64,000 bases of DNA from a virus, in the IMG/VR virus record IMGVR_UViG_3300018080_000100, one strand, 5' to 3'. The notes under the pieces were generated by a model, which searched no databases, was not told where the DNA came from, and worked only from the letters and a program-made list of their open reading frames with translations. Positions 5,267-63,914 of this stretch are shown here, one piece after another; the stretch's first letter is position 1; each line of letters begins with the position of its first letter. The position numbers and the translations under genes are program-made.

Positions 5267-5798
5267 TTATGCCGGTCCTTCGCGGGATAGCTTTTCTGCA
5301 AAGCGCCTCAGCCTGCTTTTTCCAGTTCTGTTTACCCACGGAAATGTCCGATCTGGGACGGGCAGATTTAGAAACGCGCATAGCGGCTCCCATCCGTCGC
5401 CGCCGCATACGTCGTACACCAGCAGGTCGTCCTGCCGTTCCGCAAAGTGCTTGTAGACAGCTGCTGTGTGCTCGTCCCATTTTCGTCTATGCAGCGCAGG
5501 ACTGCCTCCAAATTGCGACATGCGGCTGATGATCCACGGGTCCATGTCTCGGACAGTCAGGATGAACTTGCTGCCCGGGTACGCCGCGTCCAGCTCGCGG
5601 AACATGTAGTTGATCGGCGAGTCACAGAAAGCATTGTACTCCTCGTCGAGAGAGTGCAAAGGCGGCTTTCCGTGTCGCTTGTTCTGCCTGGCAACCGTCT
5701 TGACCTTGCGAGCCCAGTGCAGGCAATTGAAGCCGAGGATGTTCAAGGCCTTCTGCAGCGATGCAGTGCCGGTCTTGTTCATCCCTATACCAAGTATG
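5267..5798 (-). CDS. sulfotransferase (P-loop PAPS-binding type), tandem paralog A
   Basis: GIGMNKTGTAS 5'-PSB-like P-loop. Paralogous to 5812-6357. Probable GTG start with an aagggga SD. Confidence 0.6.
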
Positions 5799-5811
5799 AG
5801 TGATTTGGCCA

Positions 5812-6357
5812 CTAGGCTAATCCCCTTCTTTTTAGCGCTCGGCGACGGCGACGGCGTAGGTACGGCGTCGTCTTGTTCTTCCACGGGAACGGCTGATCGG
5901 GCACAGGCACGCCTAAGAACTCGCACAGCGGCACCCAGCCCACGCCGTCGCATAGATGGTACACAAGGATGTCGTCTTCACGGCCCTTGAAGTAGCGTGC
6001 CACCGCCTCGCAGTGGTCGTCCCAGCAGCGAGAGTGGTACTGTCGCGTATCACCGAATTGGATCATACGGCTCTTGATCCAGGCTTCCTTGCTCCGCATC
6101 GTGAAGATGAAACGGCTACCCGGATATGTGATGTCCAATACCTCAAAATGCAGGGGTATGGGGCAGTCGCAGAACGCGCGGTACTCGTCGGTGAGCGAAT
6201 GCAGTATCGGCCGCTTGCGCAGCTGATTCTCCTCGATGACCTTGCTGACACGTACTGAGTCGTGTAGGCAAGGAAACCCAAGCACGTCCAGGGCGCGCGT
6301 CAGTGACACCGTCCCGGTCTTGTTCATCCCTATGCCAAATATGAATGGCTCATCCAT
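5812..6357 (-). CDS. sulfotransferase, tandem paralog B
   Basis: MDEPFIFGIGMNKTGTVS P-loop at the N-terminus. Aligns with the upstream paralog along its length. Confidence 0.65.
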   Translation of the reverse strand: MDEPFIFGIGMNKTGTVSLTRALDVLGFPCLHDSVRVSKVIEENQLRKRPILHSLTDEYRAFCDCPIPLHFEVLDITYPGSRFIFTMRSKEAWIKSRMIQFGDTRQYHSRCWDDHCEAVARYFKGREDDILVYHLCDGVGWVPLCEFLGVPVPDQPFPWKNKTTPYLRRRRRRALKRRGLA

Positions 6358-7093
6358 GATGCTTCCTCGCTGCTTCTTCTAGCGCCGCAGACTCAGCTGG
6401 TGATACACGCCAGCGTTCTGTCTTACGACCTTTCCAGTTACGTCCCAAATGTCCCAAATGCAGCACTGCATAATCAACCCACGGCAGCAGCAGGCGTTTC
6501 TCGTCAGCCCACTCGAGCCCCAGGGCCACATCATACTTGGCCGCAGTGCGGTTTTCACTTATGCCGATTGGACGTGTCGGGTAGTGCCAGAGTTGAAAGT
6601 AGCCTTCGATACCGATCGGGTTGGATGTTGGGCGCTTGCCCCACACCTTGTTCTTACGCACAGCAGGTAGCGGATCAAGCCCTAGAGAATACCAGGACTT
6701 CTTGCGTTTGCACCGCTTCCACTGCGCCTCGGTCTTACAGCTACGACGACGCGCGCTGTAGAGGCACGTCTTGTCCAACTCGTTGAGTCCGACCCTGTCC
6801 GGTGGCGGCGGCATCATCAGGATGTCGGAATCCATAAACAGCAGCCAGCCGTCCGGCTTAGCATAAGCCAGTGCCTCGTTGAGAGCTGCCCCCTTGTTAA
6901 ACGGCGCGTTGTATTTGTTCCAAGCGCATGTCTTGAAGCACTCAGCGCCGCACCGCTTTGCCACCGCTTCCGTCGATCCGTCCGTCAGGCTCGTAGCCAC
7001 TACCACGCGCCCGTAACGTACCGCCTCCGGCAGCGTCAACGCTAGGAAGTCGCTGTAGTCGACGCTCGTCATTATGATGGTGAGCTGTGGCAT
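6350..7093 (-). CDS. GT-A fold glycosyltransferase (GT2-like)
   Basis: DxD-like FMDSDIL motif and N-terminal Rossmann-like beta strand. 8-bp overlap with neighbouring genes. Confidence 0.5.
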   Translation of the reverse strand: MPQLTIIMTSVDYSDFLALTLPEAVRYGRVVVATSLTDGSTEAVAKRCGAECFKTCAWNKYNAPFNKGAALNEALAYAKPDGWLLFMDSDILMMPPPPDRVGLNELDKTCLYSARRRSCKTEAQWKRCKRKKSWYSLGLDPLPAVRKNKVWGKRPTSNPIGIEGYFQLWHYPTRPIGISENRTAAKYDVALGLEWADEKRLLLPWVDYAVLHLGHLGRNWKGRKTERWRVSPAESAALEEAARKHHG

Positions 7094-7096
7094 ACG

Positions 7097-7750
7097 TCAT
7101 TTGGCTTTACGGATCATCTTCTTGTGCCAGCCGCTCATGAAGGACCGACGCCGGTACTTCCCGCGCAGCTCGGAAAAGCCGTCTTGCTGACCTACGATCA
7201 TCTTCTTGGCCACCAGGCACAGCGACTTGGGCTGCACCTTGTAAGCGTACCAGCGATCGATCGGCTGGGTCGCCACGCAGTACGCCGGGAACAGCGAACG
7301 GTGTACAGCATAGGCGTGCCCGCACAGGTAGCCGCCGCGTAGCTGACACAGGTGTTTGCTGAAATCGCGCGCACCCGTGGGTATGTTCACGCGGCGCTGT
7401 GACGGATAGCCGCCCATGTAGAACAGCCGCCAATCCGTCTGCGACAGCTCATGGATAACGCCGGCCATCTCGGAGGTATCGAGCACCTTGATATCGTCCT
7501 CGAAGATAAGGACGTTGTCCAGATCTTCTTCCATCGCCCAGTTAGCGCAGGCGACGTGGGACCGGTAACACCCGCGTTCGGGGTCTTCCGGGTCTTCGAT
7601 TGCAGAGAAGCGCTCCACGCGGTGCGCTATACCCATCTTCTCGAACTCGGCCTGGGCCTGCTCCCAGCGATCGGTGTGGCTGTCCAGGTTGATACAGAGA
7701 ATACGATCGAAGTATCCGCACGGGTTCAGCCCGTCGAATTCCTTAGTCAT
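7097..7750 (-). CDS. glycosyltransferase family 25 (LPS/LOS beta-1,4-galactosyltransferase-like)
   Basis: ILCINLDSHTDRW signature near the N-terminus and an IFEDD acidic motif. Confidence 0.6.
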   Translation of the reverse strand: MTKEFDGLNPCGYFDRILCINLDSHTDRWEQAQAEFEKMGIAHRVERFSAIEDPEDPERGCYRSHVACANWAMEEDLDNVLIFEDDIKVLDTSEMAGVIHELSQTDWRLFYMGGYPSQRRVNIPTGARDFSKHLCQLRGGYLCGHAYAVHRSLFPAYCVATQPIDRWYAYKVQPKSLCLVAKKMIVGQQDGFSELRGKYRRRSFMSGWHKKMIRKAK

Positions 7751-8565
7751 TTGAAGCTCCTAACGGTTGCGGCCAGTGGAAACGGGCCTCTGGCAGAGAA
7801 GTCGACTCTGCCCTTTGAGTGCCACCGTGTCCAGCGCCACGACGGCCGAACTAGTGAAGCTAGGCCGATGTGCTGGCACACCGCTGGGTGCATCCGATAG
7901 ATGTCGCACGCGCTACGGACGTGCGCGCAGAACTTGTTGTCGAAGCCCATACGCATGTTATGGCGTCGACTGGCCCAAGGGAGCACTGCTTTGATGCCTT
8001 CGGGCGTGACGTAGTAGCACTGCGCCGTGACGCCACCATGCGGCACGTACGTCATCGGGCTGCGCTTCTGCGAATTCTTCTTGTTGATCCAACATCCGGC
8101 AACAAGACCGACAGGACGTCGATTTGGTTCAGGCTCTTGCGCTGCAGTCGTCATACGCGCCATCCAGTCCGCGTTGAACACTACGTCGTCCTGCATAATT
8201 ATAATGCCGTGATCACGCCCGAAACTTTCGACCATCCGGCAGAACGCCTGACAGGATGCGTTCACCACGCCGGACGGGCCACGGCCCAGGCGGATGACCC
8301 GGACCTTGCCGTCCAAACCCGGGCTCTTGTTCCGCGAACGCACCTGATCTAGGTCCATATCGCGCCACCGCTGCGACCTCGGCCACGATGCGCCTACAAA
8401 CACCGGCTTGTCCGTGTACAGGTAATCCTTTGTGGACTGCTGGTTGCTGGCATCGTCAAAGACAACTACCTGCTGGTCAGCAGGTAGGTCAGATGCGCTA
8501 AGCGAACGCAGCGTCACATCGAGCATGGTGTGACGGTTACGTGTTACAATCCCGATCGGAATCAT
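7747..8565 (-). CDS. GT-A fold glycosyltransferase (GT2-like)
   Basis: IGIVTRNR...VVVFDDAS pattern typical of GT2 N-terminal region. ATGA overlaps on both sides. Confidence 0.5.
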   Translation of the reverse strand: MIPIGIVTRNRHTMLDVTLRSLSASDLPADQQVVVFDDASNQQSTKDYLYTDKPVFVGASWPRSQRWRDMDLDQVRSRNKSPGLDGKVRVIRLGRGPSGVVNASCQAFCRMVESFGRDHGIIIMQDDVVFNADWMARMTTAAQEPEPNRRPVGLVAGCWINKKNSQKRSPMTYVPHGGVTAQCYYVTPEGIKAVLPWASRRHNMRMGFDNKFCAHVRSACDIYRMHPAVCQHIGLASLVRPSWRWTRWHSKGRVDFSARGPFPLAATVRSFK

Positions 8566-9662
8566 GCCCAGTCCTTGATATACGGCTCGACGGCTATCAG
8601 ATCAGGCCGCTGTTCGACAGCCTGGTCGCGTGATGCCTTATCATAGAAGATTCGCAGCACGTAACCACCCCAACCAGAGCCACAGTATCGATGGCAGATC
8701 TGTCCAGGCATAGACGTCAGTGGCGCCATCCCTTCGTCCAGTTGCATCTCGTGCGTGAGCGCAACGCCCTCCGCTAGTAGATGCAAATTGTTGTCAGCTA
8801 CGCCTGCATGGGCACGCGCGCCGGCTTCAACTAGCTTGTCGTAGTCTCGTGGCGTATCCACGAGGTCAACCGTGCAATGCGGCTTGCCTGTCCATTCCAG
8901 CAGCATTCTGCCGTTCAGCATCTCCGGATTGCGTTTGAGCACCAGCACGGGATATGCACCGGAGCGCCAGCTGCACAGCCCTGTCTCTTTGATGACAGCA
9001 GGGTCTTGCCAGCCAACACCGCTACGCAGCTCCGCGGCCACCGGGTCTTTACCCTGCAACAGCGCCCAGGCCGCAGAGCCGCCCACACCGCCTCCAGGCT
9101 TGTACACAGGCTTATCCAGGCTCATCATCGGCGTGATCGCGCAGTTCACGATGCAGCCGTCGTCGCGCGCCAACCGAGGCACGTCGAGCCAGCCGCCGGC
9201 CAGGTCCACCCGCGCGGGACAGCGATCGGGCGCAGCCATTTTGATGCGCAGGTCCGTGGAGCTAACGCTGTCGGGCACCGGTGTCTTCGGAATCTGTACG
9301 TACTTGACGCCGAGCTTGGCGCACAGCTCCTTCTTCTGCGAGACGTACTTGTCATCGACCGTTGCGGCGAGGATGTCGAAGTCGCCCGAGCGCATCGTCA
9401 GCTCGAAGTTCGTCTCAGGCGCCCAGTCGCTGCCGCCGATTACTACGGAGTCGACGAAGTCTATCGAGAGTAGGATGAGCTTCTTGTGCGACGCAGGCAG
9501 ACAGGGTTCACGACCCTTAATCTGCTTTACGACGTCGTCCGTAGGCACAACGACCGTCAGATGATCGCCGAGTGCTTTGGCTTCGCGAAGAAATTGGACG
9601 TGACCGGCGTGGATAACGTCGTACGTCCCGCTGACAAGAACCTTTACTTTCCGATCTGCCAT
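8562..9662 (-). CDS. bifunctional nucleotidyltransferase (HxGH cytidylyl/adenylyltransferase-like) + GHMP sugar kinase
   Basis: N-terminal KVLVSGTYDVIHAGHVQFL (H-x-G-H). C-terminal KPGGGVGGSAA (GHMP P-loop). Start assigned to the internal MADRK. Confidence 0.6.
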   Translation of the reverse strand: MADRKVKVLVSGTYDVIHAGHVQFLREAKALGDHLTVVVPTDDVVKQIKGREPCLPASHKKLILLSIDFVDSVVIGGSDWAPETNFELTMRSGDFDILAATVDDKYVSQKKELCAKLGVKYVQIPKTPVPDSVSSTDLRIKMAAPDRCPARVDLAGGWLDVPRLARDDGCIVNCAITPMMSLDKPVYKPGGGVGGSAAWALLQGKDPVAAELRSGVGWQDPAVIKETGLCSWRSGAYPVLVLKRNPEMLNGRMLLEWTGKPHCTVDLVDTPRDYDKLVEAGARAHAGVADNNLHLLAEGVALTHEMQLDEGMAPLTSMPGQICHRYCGSGWGGYVLRIFYDKASRDQAVEQRPDLIAVEPYIKDWA

Positions 9663-10399
9663 CTGTAACTCCCGTGCTGATAGTCGAAGCTCGTGAAGCG
9701 ATGCCGCTGCGCCATTTCCGTGTAGACACGGACGAGCAACGTATGGATCGGCGCATCGCCCCAACGCTTCGTATAGATGCCACCGTGCTTCTCGATGGCT
9801 TCCAGCGCTTCTTTGCACGGGGAGGTCAACCAGAGAGACGGCTTAGCGATATGGAAATTGTTGTAGTAGATCTTCCGGTCCCACTTGTAGGTACCGAAAG
9901 CAGGATCATGCGCACGCAGCATCGCCTTCAGGCCGCGGACCGCAGTCTTGGATTCTGGACGTGTCGCGCGCCACGCGTAGACCTTGTTGCCCTCTGCCAT
10001 GACCTCGAACGGGTCGTCGTGCATCTTGGAGCGGATGTACGAGTCATCGTCGAGGCGCATGTAGTAGTCGAAGTCCTTCAACATCGGGTATAGGCCCAAC
10101 GAGAAGAACCGGCACATGTTGCGGTAGCCGATGCTGTGCGACTGTGACAGCGTCCACTCGTTGAACTTGCTTACGTCGATGTGCGGCGGCGGCGAGATGT
10201 CGACCTGCTTGAGCACTACACGCGCGCAGCGCTCTTGCATCTGCCGCAGATGCTCATCCGTGAAGTCGCCCTCGTGGCAGACGACGACTGGGTGTGGATG
10301 CGCATCCAGCAGATTCTTCTGGAGCAGCTTCAGGCTTCTGAGCAGCTTGTCCAGTCTACGAGTCTGTGCCAAGTAGATGATCACTGTATTCATGGGCAT
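9644..10399 (-). CDS. GT15-like (Kre2/Mnt1-type alpha-1,2-mannosyltransferase family) glycosyltransferase
   Basis: YRNMCRFF and YYMRLDDDSY motifs resemble GT15 signatures. SD tgaggag upstream of MPMNT. Confidence 0.45.
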   Translation of the reverse strand: MPMNTVIIYLAQTRRLDKLLRSLKLLQKNLLDAHPHPVVVCHEGDFTDEHLRQMQERCARVVLKQVDISPPPHIDVSKFNEWTLSQSHSIGYRNMCRFFSLGLYPMLKDFDYYMRLDDDSYIRSKMHDDPFEVMAEGNKVYAWRATRPESKTAVRGLKAMLRAHDPAFGTYKWDRKIYYNNFHIAKPSLWLTSPCKEALEAIEKHGGIYTKRWGDAPIHTLLVRVYTEMAQRHRFTSFDYQHGSYRWQIGK

Positions 10400-10506
10400 A
10401 CCACTCCTCACCACATACGGTCGCCCCAACCGCTCGATCCCCTGGAACGCCGCCTGGTGCCGATCGTTGAGTCAAGTCTAGCCGCGTGTACTTCGCAAGC
10501 AGAGGA

Positions 10507-10528
10507 ACTTTGATCACATGATCAAAGT
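10507..10528 (-). promoter_or_regulatory. perfect 22-bp palindrome instance of the motif
   Basis: actttgatcacatgatcaaagt, between csp and the GT15-like gene. Confidence 0.45.
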
Positions 10529-10737
10529 TAGACTACCGTCACGTTCTCCGCCTTGGGCCGTCCGCCCTTGCCCTCTCCCTCGGTGAAGTCGACCTGCTGG
10601 CCCTCGATGAGCGCATCAAAGTCCGACTTCTGGGGGAGCCCTGAACAGTGAAAGAATATGTCGGATCCGCCGGCGTCCGGCTGGATGAATCCAAAACCAC
10701 GCTCCATCACCAACTTCTTGATGGTGCCTCTTGCCAT
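10528..10737 (-). CDS. cspA: cold-shock protein (CspA family)
   Basis: GTIKKLVMERGFGFIQPDAGG..DIFFH with RNP1/RNP2 motifs; 69 aa. Confidence 0.85.
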   Translation of the reverse strand: MARGTIKKLVMERGFGFIQPDAGGSDIFFHCSGLPQKSDFDALIEGQQVDFTEGEGKGGRPKAENVTVV

Positions 10738-10775
10738 CTTCTTCTCCTAACGCTATCTAACGTGTTGTGCTGCGC

Positions 10776-11078
10776 TTAGTTAAGAATCGCGTACAGATCG
10801 GATTCCTTAGCCAGCACGTAATCAACTCCGTCAAGTGTAACGGTTTCCGCGTACGCTGAGAAGAGCACGCGGCTACCTACTGTCACCTGCTTGCAGTCGA
10901 TTCCGACCGCTACAGCGGTGCCCGTCTGCGGCTTCTCGGTCGAGCCCTCGGGCAGTGTAATGCCACCAGGCGACATCGTTTCCCGCGGATCGGGCGTGAT
11001 CAGCACGCGCTCTCCAATCGGCTTGCAGTCCACAGGATTGCACTTACACTTGTCATCACAAGCACATCCACTAGCCAT
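10776..11078 (-). CDS. groES: GroES/Cpn10-like co-chaperonin with Cys-rich N-terminal extension
   Basis: IGERVLI..TPGGITLPEGS..GTAVAVG..VGSRVLF..ILN Cpn10 pattern, preceded by MASGCACDDKCKCNPVDCKP. aaggaga SD upstream. Confidence 0.6.
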   Translation of the reverse strand: MASGCACDDKCKCNPVDCKPIGERVLITPDPRETMSPGGITLPEGSTEKPQTGTAVAVGIDCKQVTVGSRVLFSAYAETVTLDGVDYVLAKESDLYAILN

Positions 11079-11080
11079 CT

Positions 11081-11947
11081 CTACTCTCCTTTGTGGTGGA
11101 AGACCTCTTCCATAGGTGCCCAGACTTCGCCTGGGGGTAATTCGCTGACGGGCTGCTGCAACGGTGTGCATAGCTTCCACCAGCGCTGTGTTTCCTCGTC
11201 CGCAGCCATCTTGGCCATGTCAGCCTCGTAGTCGTCGCCGACGTACTCGTAGTAGCTGAACAGGTAATCGTTCCCATCCGGCAGACGCGCCGCAAAGATC
11301 GAGTAGTTGCGGATGTTGCACTCCTCGATCTTACTCAGAACGGTTGCCCACACTTCGGCATGCAGCCGCCGATACTCGGCAAGCTTGCCCGGCGTGACCT
11401 GCACGACCATGCCGTAGCGGTTTGCAAGGCCCTTAGGCCAGATCGACTGTGCTAGGCTGCACCGCAGCTCGTCGACATCGAATACGACGTTGACGCCGAA
11501 CACACGCCCCTGCACCAGGAAACCCCTGCGTGTCACCCACTCAACCTCGACCACTGCACGGTTCTCTGGGATCTCTGGTACCTTTTCATCGCCGTATGCG
11601 CGTGCTATGCGCTTGAATACAGGCGACAGGATGCAGAAGCCCTTGTTAAGGTCCGACACGCTTATGGTGCGCCCTTCTGGCTCAGCTGCGAATACCAGCA
11701 GGTCGGGGTGAGCATCCAGTACGATGCAGCGCTTCTCCGTGTCAACCTGGCGGTCGAGTTCGATCACGATATCGGGGTCGTCGCCAAAGTCCCACGGCAA
11801 GAACATCCGTACGCGGCTTTCCTTGTCGGTGAACGCCATGGGTAGCCCGGTGACACCCTCCGCCTCGATTGCCGCGGCCACGTTGGGCCGGCGCGGGCGC
11901 AGCCAGTTCATAAACTCCGGCGTGATCTTGTATACATCGGTCGGCAT
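11081..11947 (-). CDS. fusion protein with C-terminal L-rhamnose mutarotase (RhaM/YiiL, Dabb) domain
   Basis: C-terminus EYRRLHAEVW..NYSIF..DGNDYLFSYYEY..QRWWKLCTP..EVF matches rhamnose mutarotase conserved residues. N-terminal ~190 aa unknown. Confidence 0.5.
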   Translation of the reverse strand: MPTDVYKITPEFMNWLRPRRPNVAAAIEAEGVTGLPMAFTDKESRVRMFLPWDFGDDPDIVIELDRQVDTEKRCIVLDAHPDLLVFAAEPEGRTISVSDLNKGFCILSPVFKRIARAYGDEKVPEIPENRAVVEVEWVTRRGFLVQGRVFGVNVVFDVDELRCSLAQSIWPKGLANRYGMVVQVTPGKLAEYRRLHAEVWATVLSKIEECNIRNYSIFAARLPDGNDYLFSYYEYVGDDYEADMAKMAADEETQRWWKLCTPLQQPVSELPPGEVWAPMEEVFHHKGE

Positions 11948-11983
11948 CTTTGTACCTCGCAACTACAAACTAAAGTGCGACTT

Positions 11984-12409
11984 TCACTCGTCGCCCAGTA
12001 GCTCCTCCCATTTGTCAATACGACGTACGTCACTGTCGTCGTGGTATGTGCTGGACTCGTAGGCCCACGTGTCGTGTTCGGCGCTCAGCCGATGCCAGTC
12101 GCCAGGATGCAGCATGATCGACCAGCCGGGCTGCAGCCTAGCGATCTGCAATGCCACCATCGAGTGGATGCCGGTGCGCATCAGCTGTTCTGGGTCGCCC
12201 TGCAAATACTCTACGACCAAACAGCCCGATTCGCAAGTAATTACCTCGGCCTTGATCGGATGCTTGTGAATGCTCGACTTCTTGCCCGCCTTGACGAACA
12301 GCGTCTTCTGGCACAGGTTGTGATTGACGTCATTGAGATGCCACGACTCGTAGCCCCAATCCTTCGGCACAAACTTCGCGGTTTGCACGGGAATGACTTC
12401 AGCTGCCAT
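11984..12409 (-). CDS. cupin-domain protein (sugar isomerase/epimerase-like?)
   Basis: KDWGYESW...H.H...E...PGDWH cupin two-motif pattern. Confidence 0.5.
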   Translation of the reverse strand: MAAEVIPVQTAKFVPKDWGYESWHLNDVNHNLCQKTLFVKAGKKSSIHKHPIKAEVITCESGCLVVEYLQGDPEQLMRTGIHSMVALQIARLQPGWSIMLHPGDWHRLSAEHDTWAYESSTYHDDSDVRRIDKWEELLGDE

Positions 12410-12725: not shown

Positions 12726-12765
12726 ATCGCAATGGCGAATTCGCTTGGAAACAGATCGTTCATGG

Positions 12766-13416
12766 TTACTTAGGCGGCTTGGCGGCGCGTTCGACAGCCA
12801 AGCAGACCTCTCCGTCTTTCTCGATGAGTGTGTTCATGTCGTCGAACGGGATATACGCTCGGCCGTTTTTGCCCCAGTTTTGGCCCCATGAGTTCTTGAT
12901 CCGGAACAGCCCGCGCTCCTTGGATACGCCAGTGACGAGGTAGGCATGCCCGCCGTAGTTTGGCCCTGTGGCCGACAGGACAGCGTCGGCGCCTGGCCGA
13001 TCCATGCCCTTGTACCAGTTGGTGCCCACAACGACCGGTCCGCGCTCCAGCACGGCGTCGAGCAGCGTGTCCACGTCCCAGGCCCACTCGTATCGGTCGA
13101 TCAGGCCGAGCATCTTGAGCACCTTGGCGCCTGCACGCACCGACGTGCCGTCGTAGTTGGTGCCCTTCCACTCGTCGTACTTCTTGCAGATCGTGTATAG
13201 GCCGTCGGGGTTGAGCCAGTGGCGGATCGGCGCGCTGGCCAGCCAGTGCGACCATGCAAAGCCCACACAATGCGGGGTGGCCTTCTGGTCCTGCCAGCAG
13301 CGATGATCCTGCCAGAAGCGATAGACGCGTTCGCTCGCTGTGCGTGGGATGCGGAATCGTCTGTCGCGGGCGTCGGGCTTGTAGCGCCGACCGTAGTTAC
13401 GCTTGGGCATTGTCAT
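12766..13416 (-). CDS. papain-like (C1) cysteine peptidase
   Basis: CVGFAW (catalytic Cys), GGHAYLVTG (His), KNSWGQNWGKNG (Asn/Trp) in C1-family order. Confidence 0.55.
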   Translation of the reverse strand: MTMPKRNYGRRYKPDARDRRFRIPRTASERVYRFWQDHRCWQDQKATPHCVGFAWSHWLASAPIRHWLNPDGLYTICKKYDEWKGTNYDGTSVRAGAKVLKMLGLIDRYEWAWDVDTLLDAVLERGPVVVGTNWYKGMDRPGADAVLSATGPNYGGHAYLVTGVSKERGLFRIKNSWGQNWGKNGRAYIPFDDMNTLIEKDGEVCLAVERAAKPPK

Positions 13417-14032
13417 GCTCCTTGTCTGGGTTTTGCCAACTTAGATCGTACCCGAAACGGCGATCGGCGTGAAACCAGGGCCTTACTGTGTTCCACAGCT
13501 CTGGCGTATACACCTGCCGAAAAGGTGGGTGCGCTGTATTGTAGTTGTCTTCCTGTATCGGCACCTGTGCGGCACCCACGTGCGCCATTACCTCATCGAA
13601 TCCGCGCTGCATGTCCTCGAACGGTACGACGAATGACACGATCGTACGTCCGTACCCGGCGCCTGCCGATGCGCTCGTCCAATGCGCGTTGGGCAACCTG
13701 CCATAAGCATGCGGCTGCAAGCCACGCACCCATTGTTCGAAGGATTTTCTACGAACACGTGAAGCCTGCATACGCTTTAAGAACCAGTAGAGCGACACCA
13801 AACGCGCCATAGGGTGGCGCACGGTCGTAAACCACGTATAGTCACGACACTGCGCATACTGCGGCATCTTCTTGAACTCTGCCGGCGATGTGTGTTGATC
13901 AGCCTGACGCGGCCACCGCGGCATAAACCAACGCTCGGCGCCCAACTCGTCCTGCAGCGTCCGCCCTATCGACGAACTGGCGCAGCGCGGATTACAGAAG
14001 AACAACAGCTTGTAGTCGTGCGCAACTATCAC
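13397..14032 (-). CDS. sulfotransferase-family protein (Sulfotransfer_2-like)
   Basis: N-terminal LLFFCNPRCASSS resembles the xxH/RxPKxxGTS sulfotransferase motif. Basic W-rich body. Confidence 0.45.
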   Translation of the reverse strand: MIVAHDYKLLFFCNPRCASSSIGRTLQDELGAERWFMPRWPRQADQHTSPAEFKKMPQYAQCRDYTWFTTVRHPMARLVSLYWFLKRMQASRVRRKSFEQWVRGLQPHAYGRLPNAHWTSASAGAGYGRTIVSFVVPFEDMQRGFDEVMAHVGAAQVPIQEDNYNTAHPPFRQVYTPELWNTVRPWFHADRRFGYDLSWQNPDKEHDNAQA

Positions 14033-14430
14033 TGGACTAACACCTTGGAGATGTCGAGCAGTGCGTGACAGACGCGCAGGGCGTACTGGTTGGTATTGAT
14101 CAGATCAGGCTCGAGGGCGTGGTCCTCTTCCAGCTCATCGTCGTCCTTCATGGTCTTGACGATCTCGTCCAGGTGCGCAATGCAGTCCTTGGCCGCACAG
14201 CTGCGGATGAACTCGCCATAGCGGGCAGTCAGCTCAGGTACGGTGGCGCCAGCGTCGCGCTCGGTGCGCAGCTTCGTGAGAAACTCCTCCAGCTCCTCGG
14301 CTGCTTCGCGCAACTCAACGGCCAGCTGGGACAACTGGTGCATGTATCGGACGCTACGTGACATGAAGTTCCTCCACGAGGTCTGCAACCTCTTCGCCAA
14401 CTGGATAACCGAACTCCTCGAACCATGCAA
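14029..14430 (-). CDS. hypothetical helical protein
   Basis: 133-aa ORF, 4-bp overlap with the downstream gene. Confidence 0.4.
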   Translation of the reverse strand: MHGSRSSVIQLAKRLQTSWRNFMSRSVRYMHQLSQLAVELREAAEELEEFLTKLRTERDAGATVPELTARYGEFIRSCAAKDCIAHLDEIVKTMKDDDELEEDHALEPDLINTNQYALRVCHALLDISKVLVQ

Positions 14431-15064
14431 GGTACTTTTCTTCGATATGCTGGATATCGAAGTACGGCAGCCGCTGGTGGTAGCCGCCGATACCGACGTG
14501 CTGCCGGTGGCGCTGTTTGCCGTACAGGAAGCCCTGTTCCGGCTCGTATTCAGTGTTCAGCTCAGGTAGAATCTCGAGCTTGATTGCTATGTCTTCCAGC
14601 TGCCGATAGTCGAAGCTGTGGTCTGGGAACAGGTGCCTGGCCAGCATATCCAGCGTACCCACCTTGTTGACCATCATGCTCTCGAATCGGAGCCCCTTGG
14701 TCGCGCACGCCGTCCATTCGAACGCAGGCTCGACAAGCAGCGCCTCCATACCGACGAATACGCCATCGCAGAGTCCACGGCGCTTGTACGACTCGACTTC
14801 CAAGAGCTGGGCAGCTACAGCGCTGCAGAACGCGTCTCGCAGGTCGCGGACGATGGTGATGACTTTGTCGGCCGGGCGCCAGTCCACTGAGATGTCGTGG
14901 GTCTTGATAACCTCGATGAACCCGGCCGGCGGCGGCTCATACGACTGAATATCGGTGGCATAGACGATGCCTGGGAACAGCTTCTCCGCCAGCATGCGCA
15001 CGGCGTTGAACGTCCACGTGGAGCCCGAACGGGCCATTGCCCCGACAACGATCCTGGTCATCAT
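14354..15064 (-). CDS. sulfotransferase (P-loop type)
   Basis: GAMARSGSTW (5'-PSB P-loop) and TIVRDLRD (3'-PB RDxRD-like). The palindromic motif abuts the start. Confidence 0.65.
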   Translation of the reverse strand: MMTRIVVGAMARSGSTWTFNAVRMLAEKLFPGIVYATDIQSYEPPPAGFIEVIKTHDISVDWRPADKVITIVRDLRDAFCSAVAAQLLEVESYKRRGLCDGVFVGMEALLVEPAFEWTACATKGLRFESMMVNKVGTLDMLARHLFPDHSFDYRQLEDIAIKLEILPELNTEYEPEQGFLYGKQRHRQHVGIGGYHQRLPYFDIQHIEEKYLAWFEEFGYPVGEEVADLVEELHVT

Positions 15065-15086
15065 TTTGTTCCTGTGATCAAAATCA
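15065..15086 (-). promoter_or_regulatory. conserved inverted-repeat motif abutting a sulfotransferase start codon
   Basis: ttttgttcctgtgatcaaaatc. Confidence 0.4.
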
Positions 15087-15737
15087 GCGTTCCATCATCT
15101 TCACCCGGTGCTGCGGGCCAGCAAGCGCCATCAGGTCGTCCTCCTGCTCTGGCGTAAGCCATTGCGGGATACCGACTAACGACGCGGCCACCAAGCTCTG
15201 CGCAGCGTCCTCGACGATCTGGCAGCGGAAGAACGCCTGTCGCATAGTCGTACCCAAGGCACAGAAGCCATGGTTGACCATGAAGATCGACTCGGCTTCC
15301 TTGGCAGCCTCCGCCATCCGGTCGGCTAGTTCCTGTGTGGTAGGCGTGACATACGGCACCGTGGCACGCCGGCCCAGATCATTGACTACCTCAGCGAACA
15401 TCGCCCGTTGCGCCATATCTAGGCCTGAGCTGATCACGCCACACAGCCAAGGCGAATGTACGTGGAACACGGCGTGGATGTCTGGACGCGCTCGATAGAT
15501 GGCCAGATGCATCTGGGTCTCAGACGTCGGCTTGTAGGTGCGCGTACGCGGCTTGCCGCTGTCGATCGCCACGGGGCACAGCTGACGTATGTGCAACTCA
15601 CCCAGGGACAACCCGCTCGGCGACAGCCAGGCGGTGTCGCCGTCGCGCGCACTGATGTTGCCGCCAGAGCCAACAACCAAGTGTGCGTCGTAGAGCTTCT
15701 TGCCGTATCGGACTAGGGCGTGTGTGATAGCACTCAT
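15084..15737 (-). CDS. class II aldolase/adducin family (L-fuculose-/rhamnulose-1-phosphate aldolase or ribulose-5-P 4-epimerase-like)
   Basis: VVGSGGNISAR motif and H..H.H metal ligands. Start at MSAITHAL with a TAATG overlap to the upstream gene. Confidence 0.6.
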   Translation of the reverse strand: MSAITHALVRYGKKLYDAHLVVGSGGNISARDGDTAWLSPSGLSLGELHIRQLCPVAIDSGKPRTRTYKPTSETQMHLAIYRARPDIHAVFHVHSPWLCGVISSGLDMAQRAMFAEVVNDLGRRATVPYVTPTTQELADRMAEAAKEAESIFMVNHGFCALGTTMRQAFFRCQIVEDAAQSLVAASLVGIPQWLTPEQEDDLMALAGPQHRVKMMER

Positions 15738-16498
15738 TAGCAATAGTTCTCGTACTGCAGGCCACCAGGAATTTCCACGATGGCCGACTGTTCGATCACG
15801 TGGCACCAGGAGAAGAGTTCGATCATGTAGGCTTCCTTCTTCACGTGGCAGTGCAGGCCGTCCACAGCGAGTTCCAGCGACACAGGAACGTCCTTGTGCA
15901 TCATGCGGATCTCGTGGACCGGTCCCATCGTAGAGCAGGCCAGCGCAATCATTACGCGCCGCTCGTGTGTGTTATCGAAGGACGCCTCGTCCCAGTCCCA
16001 CGTCCATTTGGGCGACACGATGCGCCGCGGCATGTGCGGTAGGCCGCCAGCAGGGAACGGTCGCGGCTCGCACCAGCGAGGTAGCGCATCCACCATGGCG
16101 TAGCGCATGCCAACGGACAGCAGGGAGCTGAAATGCTCGTCATTCGCTGCCTGGTCTACCAACCAGCCCAGCGGATGCTTAGGCTCAGGCAGCCCGTCGA
16201 GCTTCTCTCCGCGGGACATGTGCATGCTAAGCGGTATCGTAGAGAACGGTACTGCCACAGCGCGCGTCCCCGTGGCTATGCCGTGCTTCTTCAGCACCTT
16301 GGCGTACTCGAGGATCTGCGTGGCGACCATGTCCGGTACGTCCGCAGTCTTGTCCGACTTGAGCTGGGACGCCATGCGCTCCTGTTCGGTCTTCATCAGT
16401 GCCTGCTCGGTTTCCATGTCACAGCCGTTGGCTGCCATCAGCGTGGACTGAGAGATCAGGCCGGCGCCTGCCAGCCCTAGAAAGCTTCTGCGTTTCAT
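15737..16498 (-). CDS. secreted protein with twin-arginine (Tat)-like signal peptide
   Basis: MKRRSFLGLAGAGLISQSTLMAANG (RRxFLG + hydrophobic + AxA). Confidence 0.5.
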   Translation of the reverse strand: MKRRSFLGLAGAGLISQSTLMAANGCDMETEQALMKTEQERMASQLKSDKTADVPDMVATQILEYAKVLKKHGIATGTRAVAVPFSTIPLSMHMSRGEKLDGLPEPKHPLGWLVDQAANDEHFSSLLSVGMRYAMVDALPRWCEPRPFPAGGLPHMPRRIVSPKWTWDWDEASFDNTHERRVMIALACSTMGPVHEIRMMHKDVPVSLELAVDGLHCHVKKEAYMIELFSWCHVIEQSAIVEIPGGLQYENYC

Positions 16499-19271: not shown

Positions 19272-19279
19272 GGCTATCC

Positions 19280-20182: not shown

Positions 20183-20195
20183 CGTTCTCTCCTTG

Positions 20196-21647: not shown

Positions 21648-21692
21648 TGTCCGCTCCTTGGACTTGTGTTCCGCTCCTCTAATTTACCAGCT

Positions 21693-51325: not shown

Positions 51326-51326
51326 T

Positions 51327-59902: not shown

Positions 59903-59912
59903 GTGTCTAATC

Positions 59913-62221: not shown

Positions 62222-62674
62222 CTAGTCCTCCATTTTGTCAATGAACAGTATTCCGTCGAGATGGTCGATCTCGTGCTGGATGACCCTGGCGGCCATACCA
62301 GTCAACGACCCCACGAAGCGGACGCCGTTTAGCTGCCAGGCTGTAACGTGCACCTTGGCGGCACGGCGCACCATACCGAATTCGTGTGGCACGCTCAGGC
62401 AGCCCTCCATCTCTCTTGTTATGCCGCCTCGGCGGCGTTCGATAACTGGGTTGATGAGTATCAGCTCACATTCCGTGCTTCGCGGATTGGCTTCGCTGTT
62501 CATCACCAGCACGCGCTCGGTGAGCCCGACCTGTGGGGCAGAGACCCCGTAGGCCTTCTTCTCGTACATCAGCTCGCGCATTTCTTCGAGCTGTTCGCGC
62601 AGCTTCATCGTAACTGTCTCCACGGGAGTACACACGACACGTAGCGCTTCATTCGGATGGATTAGGATTTCCAT
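62222..62674 (-). CDS. def: peptide deformylase
   Basis: GVSAPQVG (motif 1), EGCLSVP (motif 2), QHEIDHLDG (motif 3, HExxH). Confidence 0.85.
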   Translation of the reverse strand: MEILIHPNEALRVVCTPVETVTMKLREQLEEMRELMYEKKAYGVSAPQVGLTERVLVMNSEANPRSTECELILINPVIERRRGGITREMEGCLSVPHEFGMVRRAAKVHVTAWQLNGVRFVGSLTGMAARVIQHEIDHLDGILFIDKMED

Positions 62675-63165
62675 TAGCTGGCGGCCTCCGCTGCTTCTGA
62701 TTCTTCTTCGCGCAGTTTGATACGCCGAGGCGCACGCTCCGCTAGCTCGGGCGGTGGCGTTTCGCCTGCGGCCACGTACAGATCGGCGTCACGCAACGCC
62801 GTCACTTCGTCGACGTAATCCTGCAGCGTTTCGAGCATGTACTGCGTGATATGCGCCTCCGCCTGCTCGCGAAAACGATCCCATATTTCTTTGGCGCGCT
62901 CGCCGAAACTGTCGACGCGGTACCGCGCTTTAGTTTCGATGGCGCCGCTGGCATAGAAGCGCATAATATCGGAGCCATCGGTACGGCAGATCGACGTAGC
63001 TTTGCCCGGATCCTTCCAGCGCGCCAGGAGCCGCGTGAATACGTCGAGCAGCTCCTCGTCCCAGTGGTACAGCTCCTGCTCAGCCTTGCGCGCCTTAATC
63101 TCCTCGTTAAGCCTTTCGTGCTCTTCGCTTGTCATAGGCATTATACATGCGGTCCCTCGGGACAC
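62674..63165 (-). CDS. hypothetical protein
   Basis: 163 aa, helical/acidic. Confidence 0.4.
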   Translation of the reverse strand: MSRGTACIMPMTSEEHERLNEEIKARKAEQELYHWDEELLDVFTRLLARWKDPGKATSICRTDGSDIMRFYASGAIETKARYRVDSFGERAKEIWDRFREQAEAHITQYMLETLQDYVDEVTALRDADLYVAAGETPPPELAERAPRRIKLREEESEAAEAAS

Positions 63166-63914
63166 TCCTCCTCTGCGAGAACCTCGTACATGTCACGGCC
63201 CCAGAAACTCGGAGTAAAGGGCCACAAGTTACACGTATCCGGCACACGGTCTTTGACCATCTCCGGACGCGTACGTGAGAGCGGTTTCTCGGCACCCGTC
63301 CATTCGGTGCCTAGGAACTCGCACACTTTCTGCATCGTACCCTGGTAATCGAGCATCAGCTCTTGGTACGTCACGATGGCGCGTGCCCATGGCATCCCGG
63401 TCACCATCTGCCAGAACGCGCCAGTCCGATTCACAAACTCAGCGCAGTTCTTCTCGTTGAAGATCGGTGTCTGTGACGCCAGCGGCCCCTCATCTAGCGT
63501 GCGCACCCACACGTTGTCCGCCATGCAGACGCAGTTGGAGATGTACACAGCCATCGGGTTGCGCGACATGACCACTACTTTCATGTCAGTGTCGCCCAAC
63601 GCCAGCGGTACGATTTCCGGGCGCTTATAGAACGACGCGTCGATGATCTTGTAGCCATAGTGCGTCTCGCAGTCCTGTGCGAGTGCAGGCAGCACCTTGT
63701 CGTTGAACCATGCAGACTCCGCTTGCGGCGCCAGCGGTACGCCGCCCTCTAACGGTACGCCTTCTTGCTCACACGCGACAATACGGTGGGTGTTGTTCGG
63801 GTTGAACAGCTCACGCCAGCACATGCGTACGCCCGGGACCTGATTCAGCGATGCTGCCATCAGCGTCGTCCCCGACCTCGCCATCCCGATCACCGCTATC
63901 TTCTGCTTCGGCAT
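63141..63914 (-). CDS. sulfotransferase (P-loop type)
   Basis: IAVIGMARSGTTLM P-loop; aaggagacgg SD upstream. Confidence 0.6.
   Translation of the reverse strand: MPKQKIAVIGMARSGTTLMAASLNQVPGVRMCWRELFNPNNTHRIVACEQEGVPLEGGVPLAPQAESAWFNDKVLPALAQDCETHYGYKIIDASFYKRPEIVPLALGDTDMKVVVMSRNPMAVYISNCVCMADNVWVRTLDEGPLASQTPIFNEKNCAEFVNRTGAFWQMVTGMPWARAIVTYQELMLDYQGTMQKVCEFLGTEWTGAEKPLSRTRPEMVKDRVPDTCNLWPFTPSFWGRDMYEVLAEEECPEGPHV

What the first reader, a model, noticed from the sequence alone, without database searches (positions are those of the whole stretch)
5267..63914. Six sulfotransferase genes in one phage-like genome segment, including a tandem paralog pair
Six genes carry sulfotransferase signatures: 5267-5798, 5812-6357, 13397-14032, 14354-15064, 21693-22331 and 63141-63914. 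Most show a PAPS-type P-loop (GIGMNKTGT, MARSGSTW/MARSGTTL, LPRSGTTM) and some an RDxRD-like 3'-PB element. Viral genomes rarely carry even one sulfotransferase, so six, including a tandem duplicate and one inside the virion-like module, would be an unusual sulfation toolkit. Possible targets are host surface glycans (sulfated EPS, LPS or capsule) or virion proteins, including the Tyr-rich secreted protein and the P/A/Q-rich proteins encoded here.
Basis: partly seen in the sequence, partly recalled or inferred. Interest (0 to 1): 0.85.

Follow-up and report, generated by a model that had tools for sequence, protein, structure and literature searches.

The report
Six sulfotransferases in a jumbo phage
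An uncultivated ~226-kb phage carries six genuine sulfate-transferring enzymes, five of them inside a sugar-building gene module shared with related phages, so this lineage probably makes a sulfated glycan, which has not been shown for any bacterial virus.

Summary

The window is part of a ~226.5-kb metagenomic contig with a portal-like gene and IMG/VR relatives. Five STs lie in a ~17-kb module (5267-22331) with four to five glycosyltransferases, a cytidylyltransferase and deoxy-sugar enzymes. The module backbone recurs in at least four related phage contigs, including one from deep-sea sediment: G/P/A-rich proteins, 14354-type ST, variable sugar genes, two GT2-like genes, Sulfotransfer_4.

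The claim that viruses "rarely carry even one" is overstated, because single phage STs are already reported. Six STs from four families is unusual. I found no PAPS-synthesis gene in the window or within ~9-10 kb either side. The acceptor is unresolved. I favour phage-encoded proteins or the virion over host surface glycan.

The parts
5267..5812 (-). Sulfotransfer_4 sulfotransferase, downstream tandem copy (181 aa; corrected start GTG 5812)
   Evidence: Pfam PF17784 E 7e-36. It is 55% identical to the upstream copy. The TAGTG stop/start overlap is visible, and a sister contig has the same 181-aa gene call. The single-copy orthologue in relatives is closer to this copy. Motifs GIGMNKTGT, CLH and TVR..PWIISR are conserved.
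5812..6357 (-). Sulfotransfer_4 sulfotransferase, upstream tandem copy (181 aa), the more diverged duplicate
   Evidence: Pfam PF17784 E 2e-32. The closest solved relative is the Streptomyces sulfotransferase 9kf1/9kf2 (Cpz8, PAP complex), E 1.2e-12.
6350..8565 (-). Three glycosyltransferase-like genes: 6350-7093 (GT2-like, weak), 7097-7750 (GT25), 7747-8565 (GT2-like, weak)
   Evidence: Pfam. 6350 and 7747 are conserved next to Sulfotransfer_4 in all longer relatives.
8562..9818 (-). Cytidylyltransferase (glycerol-3-phosphate / ethanolamine-phosphate cytidylyltransferase type) with an unassigned C-terminal half
   Evidence: Pfam CTP_transf_like E 2.4e-10. PDB matches 3elb E 1e-14 and 1coz E 7.5e-11. 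It is not an ATP sulfurylase.
9644..10429 (-). GT15-family (alpha-1,2-mannosyltransferase-like) glycosyltransferase
   Evidence: Pfam PF01793 E 3e-23. Conserved in L013.
10528..12409 (-). Cold-shock protein (10528-10737), Cpn10 (10776-11180), L-rhamnose mutarotase domain protein (11081-11962), lyxose-isomerase-like cupin (11984-12409)
   Evidence: Pfam. Cupin, Cpn10 and CSD are conserved in relatives.
12766..13416 (-). Papain-like (Peptidase_C1) protein
   Evidence: Pfam E 1.6e-5. Conserved in L026 and L030.
13397..14032 (-). Sulfotransfer_2 (carbohydrate-type) sulfotransferase, 211 aa
   Evidence: Pfam PF03567 E 3.7e-10. PHROG 3347 'galactose-3-O-sulfotransferase' E 2e-5. Motifs NPRCASSS and VRHPMARLVS.
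14029..14430 (-). Small conserved ORF that always follows the 14354-type ST
   Evidence: Homologues directly downstream of the ST in L013, L014, L026, L028 and L030. No family match.
14354..15064 (-). Divergent Sulfotransfer_1/3-like sulfotransferase, 236 aa; conserved anchor gene of the module
   Evidence: Invariant RSGSTW, H56 and RDxRDAxxS in 12 homologues. AF2 model pLDDT 76. Top 50 Foldseek PDB hits are all sulfotransferases. Present in every related contig.
15084..15806 (-). Class II aldolase (L-fuculose-phosphate aldolase-like)
   Evidence: Pfam E 4e-40. PDB 6btd E 1.6e-23.
16650..21647 (-). Three low-complexity G/P/A/Q-rich proteins (873, 300 and 483 aa), conserved between the two STs; candidate acceptors (inferred)
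   Evidence: Composition and repeats. No Pfam or PHROG match. Homologues sit in the same position in L013, L014/L028 and L030.
21693..22331 (-). Highly divergent sulfotransferase, 212 aa (no direct Pfam hit)
46885..47934 (-). GT1/GT4-like glycosyltransferase immediately downstream of the portal-like gene
   Evidence: Pfam Glycos_transf_1 E 7e-6, 26.1 bits against a cut-off of 26.4. Conserved beside the portal gene in 7 of 9 IMG/VR relatives.
47980..49995 (-). Portal-like protein (671 aa); marks the element as a tailed phage
   Evidence: tblastn: Vibrio phage D69 E 9e-58; Salmonella phage Arash 'portal protein' E 5e-52. Nine IMG/VR relatives at 67-79% identity.
63141..63914 (-). Sulfotransfer_1/3 sulfotransferase (257 aa), NodH-like, outside the glycan module, next to peptide deformylase and ThyX
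   Evidence: Pfam PF13469 E 1e-13 and PF00685 E 8.5e-11. PDB 9vki 'LPS sulfotransferase NodH' E 4e-4, aligned from the P-loop to the 3'-PB element. SD AAGGAGA before ATG 63914. Neighbours.

Best explanation
The window is part of an uncultivated ~226-kb tailed (jumbo-size) phage. It encodes six soluble, cytoplasmic, PAPS-type sulfotransferases from four sequence families.

Five of them lie in a ~17-kb module (5267-22331). The module also holds four to five glycosyltransferases, a CDP-alcohol-type cytidylyltransferase and deoxy-sugar-handling enzymes.

Proposed mechanism:
1. During infection the phage glycosyltransferases build a glycan in the host cytoplasm.
2. The sulfotransferases take sulfate from host-made PAPS and O-sulfate that glycan at several positions. 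The different ST families supply different regio- or acceptor specificities.
3. The most likely acceptors are phage-encoded proteins: the conserved G/P/A/Q-rich low-complexity proteins encoded between two of the STs, and/or virion surface proteins. The product would be a negatively charged, sulfated coat.

The sixth ST (63141, NodH-like) is encoded elsewhere, among nucleotide-metabolism genes, and may act on a different substrate.

Shown: enzyme family and fold, conserved cofactor-binding motifs, gene context and conserved synteny.
Inferred: PAPS use, host supply of PAPS, glycan as substrate, and the identity of the acceptor.

Approximate confidence in each step: real sulfotransferases 0.93; sulfated glycoconjugate pathway 0.6; phage-protein or virion acceptor 0.4.
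For: Enzyme identity:
- Pfam hits above cut-off for four genes.
- Structure-based confirmation for the other two.
- Family-wide invariance of the 5'-PSB loop, a His, and the 3'-PB strand-helix element.
- In both models the motifs fall on the expected strand-loop-helix elements.

Cytoplasmic location: none of the six has a predicted transmembrane segment or signal peptide, and the P-loop starts at residues 5-15.

Glycan context:
- GT25, GT15 and two weak GT2-like genes, a cytidylyltransferase, fuculose-P aldolase, rhamnose mutarotase and a lyxose-isomerase-like cupin are interleaved with the STs.
- 13397 belongs to the carbohydrate-type Sulfotransfer_2 family.
- 63141 is nearest to the NodH LPS/Nod-factor ST.

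Selection on the arrangement: the same backbone occurs in at least four independent related contigs, while the inner sugar genes vary. The backbone is G/P/A-rich proteins, 14354-type ST, small ORF, cupin, Cpn10, CSD, two GT2-like genes and Sulfotransfer_4.

Phage-protein acceptor (weak):
- The low-complexity proteins are always encoded beside the STs.
- A further GT is conserved next to the portal gene in 7 of 9 relatives.
- No flippase, polymerase, initiating phosphoglycosyltransferase or membrane-embedded GT was detected in the window.
- Virion glycosylation by phage GTs has precedent in mycobacteriophages (Freeman et al. 2023, cited in PMC12619734).
Against: - No biochemical evidence exists. 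PAPS binding, the acceptor and the product are all inferred.
- No PAPS-synthesis gene (APS kinase, ATP sulfurylase) was found in the window or within ~9-10 kb either side. The host is unknown, so PAPS availability is assumed.
- The major capsid protein, terminase and tail genes were not identified. The G/P/A-rich proteins therefore cannot be called virion proteins.
- Two GT2 hits and the GT1 hit are below or at Pfam cut-offs.
- The Sulfotransfer_4 pair is closest to enzymes that act on small molecules (Cpz8, schistosome oxamniquine ST).
- GT25 and the NodH-like ST point as much to LPS/LOS as to protein glycans.
- 21693 has Lys where the canonical 3'-PB Arg lies.
Confidence: 0.6

Rival explanations
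1. Host-envelope remodelling. The module sulfates and extends host surface glycoconjugates (LPS/LOS core or O-antigen, capsule or EPS precursors on the cytoplasmic face). This would change receptor properties, for example to exclude superinfecting phages or prevent progeny from re-adsorbing to lysing cells.
For: - GT25 is an LPS/LOS-type family.
- 63141 is nearest to the NodH LPS sulfotransferase.
- The cytidylyltransferase is of the type used for glycerol-phosphate or phosphoethanolamine decoration of envelope polymers.
- The phage encodes a secreted PEP-CTERM protein, which implies a host with an exosortase/EPS system.
- Variable inner gene content resembles surface-polysaccharide loci.
Against: - No flippase, polymerase, initiating transferase, Gtr-type membrane protein or integrase was found in the window.
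- All STs, and the GTs examined, lack strong transmembrane segments.
- The conserved linkage is to phage low-complexity proteins and, for one GT, to the portal gene.
Confidence: 0.25
2. Small-molecule or peptide sulfation. Some or all of the STs sulfate metabolites, signalling molecules or Tyr residues of peptides or proteins rather than sugars, for example as host-takeover or detoxification functions.
For: - The Sulfotransfer_4 pair is closest to the Cpz8 and schistosome small-molecule STs.
- The models of 14354 and 21693 match cytosolic SULTs, glycopeptide-antibiotic STs (Teg12, StaL) and tyrosylprotein STs about as well as carbohydrate STs.
- 63141 is not in the glycan module.
Against: - Five STs are embedded among glycosyltransferases and sugar enzymes in conserved synteny.
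- Fold matches at 10-17% identity do not discriminate acceptor class.
Confidence: 0.1
3. DNA hypermodification. The glycosyltransferases and STs decorate modified bases in phage DNA with (sulfated) sugars to evade restriction.
For: - Phage GTs are known to hypermodify DNA with diverse glycans (Pyle et al. 2024, cited in PMC12619734).
- ThyX lies near the 63141 ST and a thymidylate kinase lies just beyond the other end of the window.
Against: - No ThyA-type dC/dU hydroxymethylase or DNA base-modifying enzyme was detected in the window.
- GT15, GT25 and GT2 are not the families known for DNA glycosylation (from general knowledge, not tested here).
- No sulfated DNA base is known.
Confidence: 0.04
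4. The genes are sulfotransferase-fold relics or P-loop kinases with another function, and the clustering is incidental.
For: - 21693 and 14354 have no significant Pfam match.
- 21693 carries Lys instead of the 3'-PB Arg.
Against: - The cofactor-binding motifs are invariant across homologues down to 20-40% identity.
- Synteny is conserved across divergent relatives.
Confidence: 0.03

Closest known systems
PAPS-dependent sulfotransferases (Pfam Sulfotransfer_1/2/3/4), e.g. NodH/LpsS of rhizobia, Streptomyces Cpz8, Teg12/StaL, cytosolic SULTs, TPST
   Same: Same fold, an N-terminal strand-loop-helix 5'-PSB motif (xK/RxGT/S-T), a 3'-PB strand-helix with R/K...S, and a conserved His.
   Different: - Very divergent: 10-17% identity to solved structures.
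- Two of the six are invisible to Pfam.
- They are short (181-257 aa).
- The 21693 family has Lys in place of the 3'-PB Arg.
- They are encoded by a phage, and the acceptors are unknown.
Single sulfotransferase 'auxiliary metabolic genes' reported in phage and virome studies (e.g. OM43-phage MVGs, Synechococcus phage S-SRM01, glacier-ice viruses; PHROG 3347)
   Same: A phage-borne sulfotransferase of the Sulfotransfer_3 or Sulfotransfer_2 type whose role is unknown (PMC10580990; PMC8290583).
   Different: - Here there are six genes from four families in one genome.
- Five are arranged with glycosyltransferases in a module that is syntenic across a phage lineage.
- tblastn with 5812-6357 and 63141-63914, the two STs tested, found no homologue in 50,697 deposited phage genomes.
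Virus-encoded virion glycosylation systems (mycobacteriophage capsid and tail-tube glycosylation; chlorovirus and mimivirus glycan machineries)
   Same: The virus carries its own glycosyltransferases and sugar-activating enzymes and acts in the cytoplasm. One GT is conserved beside a morphogenesis gene, the portal. The mycobacteriophage precedent is cited.
   Different: Sulfation has not been described for these systems (my knowledge, plus empty literature searches). Virion glycosylation is not demonstrated here.
Bacterial sulfated-polysaccharide or LPS-sulfation loci (e.g. rhizobial NodH/LpsS; cyanobacterial sulfated EPS clusters)
   Same: Several STs sit together with GTs, there is a NodH-like member, and the system depends on cellular PAPS.
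   Different: No export or polymerisation genes were found. The locus lies in a phage genome and is linked to phage low-complexity proteins.

Membership tests
PAPS-dependent sulfotransferase superfamily | Significant match to a curated sulfotransferase profile | tested here: met
   Four of six are above Pfam gathering scores. 14354 is sub-threshold directly (E 0.038). 21693 matches only transitively: 28 and 19 of 67 aligned family members hit Sulfotransfer_3 and Sulfotransfer_1, and no other family is hit. Its profile reaches annotated STs and the window's 63141 ST at E 4e-9.
PAPS-dependent sulfotransferase superfamily | Sulfotransferase alpha/beta fold, distinguishable from P-loop kinases | tested here: met
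PAPS-dependent sulfotransferase superfamily | 5'-phosphosulfate-binding (PSB) loop after strand 1 | tested here: met
   Motifs are GIGMNKTGT (both tandem copies), NPRCASSS, MARSGSTW, LPRSGTTM and MARSGTTL. They are invariant or nearly so in homologues. They lie on strand-loop-helix elements in the models. The relative L003 keeps the motif in frame upstream of its annotated start.
PAPS-dependent sulfotransferase superfamily | 3'-phosphate-binding element (Arg ... Ser on a strand-helix) | tested here: met
   Elements are VRDLRDAFCS (14354; R73, S81 invariant), SRNPMAVYIS (63141; aligned to NodH), VRHPMARLVS (13397) and TVRDMDPWIISR / TMRSKEAWIKSR (the pair). 21693 has an invariant K63...S71 (LKDPYAWIVS), i.e. 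Lys replaces Arg. That is a deviation in one of the six.
PAPS-dependent sulfotransferase superfamily | Catalytic base (usually His) positioned between the PSB and 3'-PB elements | tested here: inconclusive
   Conserved candidates exist: H56 (14354, invariant), K42-H43 (21693; H43 invariant, K42 nearly invariant) and CLH (Sulfotransfer_4). None was identified with confidence for 63141 or 13397. No superposition on a liganded structure was possible.
PAPS-dependent sulfotransferase superfamily | PAPS binding and sulfate transfer | not testable with these tools
   Needs biochemistry or ligand docking.
Virus-encoded virion glycosylation system | Virus-encoded glycosyltransferases and sugar-activation enzymes | tested here: met
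   GT25 and GT15 are above cut-off. Two GT2-like genes and one GT1-like gene are at or below cut-off. There is also a cytidylyltransferase.
Virus-encoded virion glycosylation system | Glycan attached to virion structural proteins | not testable with these tools
   Only indirect evidence is available: a GT conserved beside the portal gene and low-complexity proteins conserved beside the STs. Capsid and tail genes were not identified.
Phage serotype-conversion (host O-antigen/LPS modification) module | Membrane-embedded modification enzymes (Gtr-type, acetyltransferase) or flippase, usually in a temperate phage with an integrase | tested here: not met
   No such Pfam family is found among the ~90 window ORFs scanned. 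The STs and GTs lack transmembrane segments. The remaining ~160 kb of the genome was not examined.
Phage DNA glycosyl-hypermodification system | Pyrimidine hydroxymethylase (ThyA-like) plus a DNA glycosyltransferase | tested here: not met
   Only ThyX (Thy1) was found and no Thymidylat_synt-type hydroxymethylase is present in the window. The rest of the genome was not examined.
Tailed phage (Caudoviricetes), jumbo size | Portal protein homologue, viral relatives, genome above 200 kb | tested here: met
   The portal-like protein matches phage Arash 'portal protein' at E 5e-52. Nine IMG/VR contigs have 67-79% portal identity. Parent contigs of 226,517 and 226,656 bp were recovered from several samples. 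Terminase and capsid genes were not recognised.

The most novel reading that the evidence does not exclude
A lineage of marine or sediment jumbo phages builds its own sulfated, mucin- or proteoglycan-like glycoproteins. Phage glycosyltransferases and up to five sulfotransferases would decorate the conserved G/P/A/Q-rich phage proteins (virion-associated or released) with a polyanionic sulfated glycan. This would be the first sulfated glycoconjugate made by a bacterial virus, used for example to mask the virion, bind host surfaces or mimic host sulfated EPS.
Probability: 0.3. Interest if true: 0.8.

Novelty: new variant of a known kind. Interest (0 to 1): 0.6.

Why it matters
Sulfation is a major determinant of glycan charge and recognition, but it is essentially unexplored in phage biology. 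Phage sulfotransferases have so far been noted only as isolated auxiliary genes, and one study states that their biological function in phage genomes remains unclear (PMC10580990).

This locus offers a concrete, conserved and experimentally tractable system. It has six small soluble enzymes from four families, their partner glycosyltransferases, and candidate acceptor proteins encoded beside them. If the module makes a sulfated glycan, it would add a new kind of virus-encoded post-translational or glycan chemistry. It would also link phage infection to organic sulfur and PAPS turnover in marine sediments, and provide new compact sulfotransferases for glyco-engineering. Two of the families are invisible to Pfam, so similar genes are probably under-counted in viromes.

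Tried and rejected
1. Megablast of 20 kb against deposited phages gave no match. tblastn of the ST at 5812 and the ST at 63141 against phages gave no match. The 519-aa ORF also gave no match.
2. Sequence search of 14354 and 21693 against the PDB gave nothing useful. Structure prediction was needed.
3. NCBIfam gave nothing for any of the six.
4. Pattern scans of IMG/VR for three of the STs found no relatives. Relatives were found instead through exact-protein look-ups and the metagenome scan.
5. The genome-contig scan found only distant cellular sulfotransferases (28-39% identity) in Porticoccaceae, Solirubrobacterales and Rhodobacteraceae genomes. This gives no host assignment.
6. I tested whether the 418-aa nucleotidyltransferase could be a hidden ATP sulfurylase / PAPS synthase. 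It is a glycerol-3-P / ethanolamine-P cytidylyltransferase type, so I rejected the idea.
7. I considered that the contig might be a giant eukaryotic virus, because the relative's accession appears in a Loki's Castle NCLDV paper. I rejected this because SDBU01 is the whole metagenome assembly, not an NCLDV bin. The genes are also prokaryote-style: tightly packed, with overlapping stop/start codons, an SD sequence and a phage portal.
8. I considered that the window belongs to the 'moraphage' jumbo lineage. Nothing supports this, and that paper predicts Bacteroidota hosts and does not mention sulfotransferases.
9. The exact-protein look-up failed for the portal and for the 257-aa form of 63141 because of gene-call differences.
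10. PDB sequence searches could not identify the GT1-like gene. Pfam located it.

Full report
**1. What the window is**

Almost all long ORFs lie on the minus strand and are tightly packed. GC is about 0.59 and there are no tRNA genes.

A protein identical to one window gene occurs on metagenomic contigs of 226,517 and 226,656 bp from several samples (ENA, JGI, Logan). The window is therefore about a quarter of a ~226-kb element.

The 671-aa ORF at 47980-49995 is a distant portal homologue. It matches Vibrio phage D69 at E 9e-58 and the annotated 'portal protein' of Salmonella phage Arash at E 5e-52. Nine IMG/VR viral contigs encode the same protein at 67-79% identity.

Most large proteins have no Pfam or PHROG match. 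Megablast against deposited phages finds nothing. This is a deeply divergent, uncultivated, jumbo-size tailed phage. The capsid and terminase genes were not recognised.

One related contig, SDBU01000090.1, comes from the Loki's Castle deep-sea sediment metagenome assembly (data-availability statements in PMC6401483 and PMC7449678).

**2. Are the six genes sulfotransferases?**

Pfam places four of them above curated cut-offs:
- 5267-5953: Sulfotransfer_4, E 7e-36
- 5812-6357: Sulfotransfer_4, E 2e-32
- 13397-14032: Sulfotransfer_2, E 4e-10
- 63141-63914: Sulfotransfer_3, E 1e-13, and Sulfotransfer_1, E 8.5e-11

The other two fail Pfam. 14354-15064 gets only E 0.038, and 21693-22331 gets nothing. 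NCBIfam finds none of the six.

*14354-15064.* Twelve homologues (42-100% identity) keep R12-S-G-S-T-W17, H56 and R73-D-x-R-D-A-x-x-S81 invariant. An AlphaFold2 model (pLDDT 76, pTM 0.73) finds only PAPS-dependent sulfotransferases among its top 50 PDB matches. These include SOT18, Teg12, LGS1 and SULTs, at E 3e-6 and weaker.

*21693-22331.*
- An exhaustive profile search found 143 relatives.
- Of 67 aligned family members (the query plus 66 relatives), 28 hit Sulfotransfer_3 and 19 hit Sulfotransfer_1. No other family was hit.
- A 13-sequence profile reaches proteins named sulfotransferase at E about 1e-17.
- The family profile also detects the window's own 63141 ST at E 4e-9.
- The family conserves G8, R11, G13, T14, K42-H43 and K63-D-P-Y-A-W-x-x-S71.
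- The model is confident (pLDDT 91.6, pTM 0.89).
- Foldseek's best matches are tyrosylprotein sulfotransferases and SULTs, at modest E-values.

In both models the N-terminal motif lies on a strand-loop-helix and the second motif on a strand followed by a helix. This is the canonical placement of the 5'-PSB and 3'-PB elements.

It was therefore tested and not met.

**3. Coordinates and the tandem pair**

The two Sulfotransfer_4 genes are 55% identical over 159 residues (E 7e-67).

The ORF's first ATG (5953) would overlap the upstream gene by 142 nt. A GTG at 5812 overlaps the upstream stop (TAGTG) and gives a 181-aa protein, exactly matching its paralogue. Independent gene calls on a sister contig agree, giving 181 aa for both copies.

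Relatives have a single copy that is closer to the 5267 copy, so the duplication is specific to this phage and its sister contigs.

For 63141-63914, the ATG at 63914 has AAGGAGA 6 nt upstream. The Pfam and NodH alignments start at residues 4-5. A database gene call from a later Met, which would remove the P-loop, is therefore probably wrong.

**4. Context**

Five STs lie between 5267 and 22331. Reading in the direction of transcription, the module contains:

| Order | Gene(s) | Assignment |
|---|---|---|
| 1 | 21693 | ST |
| 2 | 20196, 19280, 16650 | three G/P/A/Q-rich low-complexity proteins (483, 300, 873 aa) |
| 3 | 15737 | Tat-signal protein |
| 4 | 15084 | fuculose-phosphate-aldolase-like enzyme |
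| 5 | 14354 | ST |
| 6 | 14029 | small conserved ORF |
| 7 | 13397 | ST (Sulfotransfer_2) |
| 8 | 12766 | papain-like protein |
| 9 | 11984 | lyxose-isomerase-like cupin |
| 10 | 11081 | rhamnose-mutarotase domain protein |
| 11 | 10776, 10528 | Cpn10, cold-shock protein |
| 12 | 9644 | GT15 |
| 13 | 8562 | glycerol-3-P / ethanolamine-P-type cytidylyltransferase |
| 14 | 7747, 7097, 6350 | GT2-like, GT25, GT2-like |
| 15 | 5812, 5267 | the Sulfotransfer_4 pair |

The sixth ST (63141) lies about 41 kb away, next to peptide deformylase, ThyX and an exonuclease-like gene.

A further GT1/GT4-like gene sits directly downstream of the portal gene. It is conserved there in 7 of 9 IMG/VR relatives.

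None of the six STs has a signal peptide or transmembrane segment.

No APS kinase, ATP sulfurylase or PAPS reductase appears among the ~90 ORFs scanned, nor in ~9-10 kb beyond either window edge. I tested the cytidylyltransferase as a possible cryptic ATP sulfurylase, and it is not one.

**5. Conservation**

Homologues of the 14354-type ST were traced to related phage contigs: L013/L025, L014/L015/L028, L030, and the fragments L026 and L027.

All of the longer contigs share the same backbone:
- G/P/A-rich proteins homologous to 20196, 19280 and 16650
- the 14354-type ST and the small ORF
- the cupin, Cpn10 and CSD
- two GT2-like genes
- Sulfotransfer_4

The 21693-type ST is present in L003 and L013 but absent from that position in L030. 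The genes in the middle differ between contigs. They include GT47, a nucleotide-sugar epimerase, a methyltransferase, a beta-helix protein, a different Sulfotransfer_2 gene, and an extra ST-like ORF in L030.

A multi-ST glycan module is therefore a lineage trait with a variable core. The window phage has the largest complement seen: five STs in the module plus one elsewhere.

**6. Mechanism**

Shown:
- six soluble sulfotransferase-fold proteins with intact cofactor motifs, from four families
- conserved physical linkage to glycosyltransferases and sugar enzymes

Inferred:
- they use host PAPS
- they sulfate a phage-built glycan at several positions

The acceptor is not known. I favour phage-encoded proteins (about 0.4), meaning the neighbouring low-complexity proteins and/or virion proteins. 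My reasons are:
- these proteins are conserved next to the STs
- one GT is conserved beside the portal gene
- there are no export or flippase genes, and all the enzymes are soluble
- phage GTs are known to glycosylate virions (Freeman et al. 2023, as cited in PMC12619734)

Host-envelope remodelling (about 0.25) remains a serious rival. It is supported by GT25, the NodH-like ST, the cytidylyltransferase type and a phage-encoded PEP-CTERM secreted protein that points to an exosortase/EPS-bearing host.

Small-molecule or peptide sulfation (about 0.1) is suggested by the Cpz8-like affinity of the Sulfotransfer_4 pair and the TPST/SULT-like fold matches. DNA hypermodification is unlikely (about 0.04).

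**7. Comparison with what is known, and novelty**

Single sulfotransferases are already reported in phages and viromes. PMC8290583 calls sulfotransferase a previously reported AMG. PMC10580990 notes a Sulfotransfer_3 gene in OM43-phage genomes and in Synechococcus phage S-SRM01, and states that the function in phages is unclear. PHROG 3347 is annotated as a galactose-3-O-sulfotransferase. The claim that viruses rarely carry even one is therefore overstated.

I found no report of a phage with several sulfotransferases, of a phage sulfated glycan, or of a 'phage-encoded sulfotransferase' characterised as such. The two STs tested (5812-6357 and 63141-63914) have no tblastn match in 50,697 deposited phage genomes.

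The enzymes are new, very divergent members of known families. The arrangement, a conserved multi-sulfotransferase glycan module in a jumbo-phage lineage, is a new variant of virus-encoded glycosylation systems.

**8. Verdict**

- Observation: confirmed, with one coordinate correction.
- Interpretation: partly supported.
- Interest: 0.6. This is a solid, unusual, lineage-conserved feature that makes phage sulfation directly testable. Its substrate and biological role are still inferred, and the component enzyme class is well known.

Noticed in passing
window 37465-38241 (-): This 258-aa protein has a signal peptide (MKRRSSTMRYALLLILLTPCFASA), a weak DUF4394-like region and a canonical C-terminal PEP-CTERM sorting tail (PEP-STITMLIIGTCVLLA-HRHRK). 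It looks like a phage-encoded exosortase substrate, which implies a Gram-negative host with an exosortase/EPS system.
   Followed up: partly
window 23037-24200 and 24201-25367 (-): A second tandem paralogue pair (387 and 388 aa, phmmer E 1e-121). Each has a poly-Ser linker and a C-terminal region with trypsin-like motifs (TPKHVI-x-x-TH ... GDSGD). There is no Pfam or PHROG match, and only one weak phage hit.
   Followed up: partly
window 20196-21647 (-) and 16650-19271 (-): The 483-aa protein carries about five tandem repeats of NPRGPGFEA(E/A)(I/V)A(R/D)M(D/N)... The 873-aa protein has long PAAAPQQPPPAA-type tracts and a Gly-zipper hydrophobic segment near residue 640. This region has raised GC (0.63-0.64) and a strongly negative AT skew.
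   Followed up: partly
window 46885-47934 (-): A GT1/GT4-like glycosyltransferase lies directly downstream of the portal-like gene and is conserved there in 7 of 9 IMG/VR relatives. There is also a weak hit to 'GT4 in conflict systems'.
   Followed up: partly
window 15737-16498 (-): This 253-aa protein starts with a twin-arginine-like signal (MKRRSFLGLAGAGL...ANGC) and may be an exported or lipoprotein product. It lies between the low-complexity proteins and the aldolase, and has no family match.
   Followed up: no
window 50027-51328 (+) versus 50249-51325 (-): Two long overlapping ORFs lie on opposite strands just upstream of the portal gene. The plus-strand ORF (433 aa) has homologues in 6 related loci, so it may be one of the few plus-strand genes. 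Neither ORF has a Pfam match.
   Followed up: no
window 6-689, 62222-62674, 61334-62221, 10776-11180, 10528-10737 (-): Host-like auxiliary genes: histidine phosphatase (E 8e-49), peptide deformylase, ThyX, Cpn10 and a cold-shock protein. Beyond the window start the sister contig carries thymidylate kinase, a 2H-SAK/InPase protein and a 1350-aa LigD_N-like protein.
   Followed up: no
L003 7967-8011 and L024 8809-9528: Public gene calls start two sulfotransferase homologues at a downstream Met, which cuts off the PAPS-binding P-loop that is encoded in frame just upstream. Automated calls may systematically truncate these small STs.
   Followed up: yes
L030 10949-11872: The most distant related contig has an extra weak Sulfotransfer_1/3-like ORF (family-profile E 2.6e-4) directly after the 14354-type ST and small ORF. 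This suggests that ST content turns over within the module.
   Followed up: no
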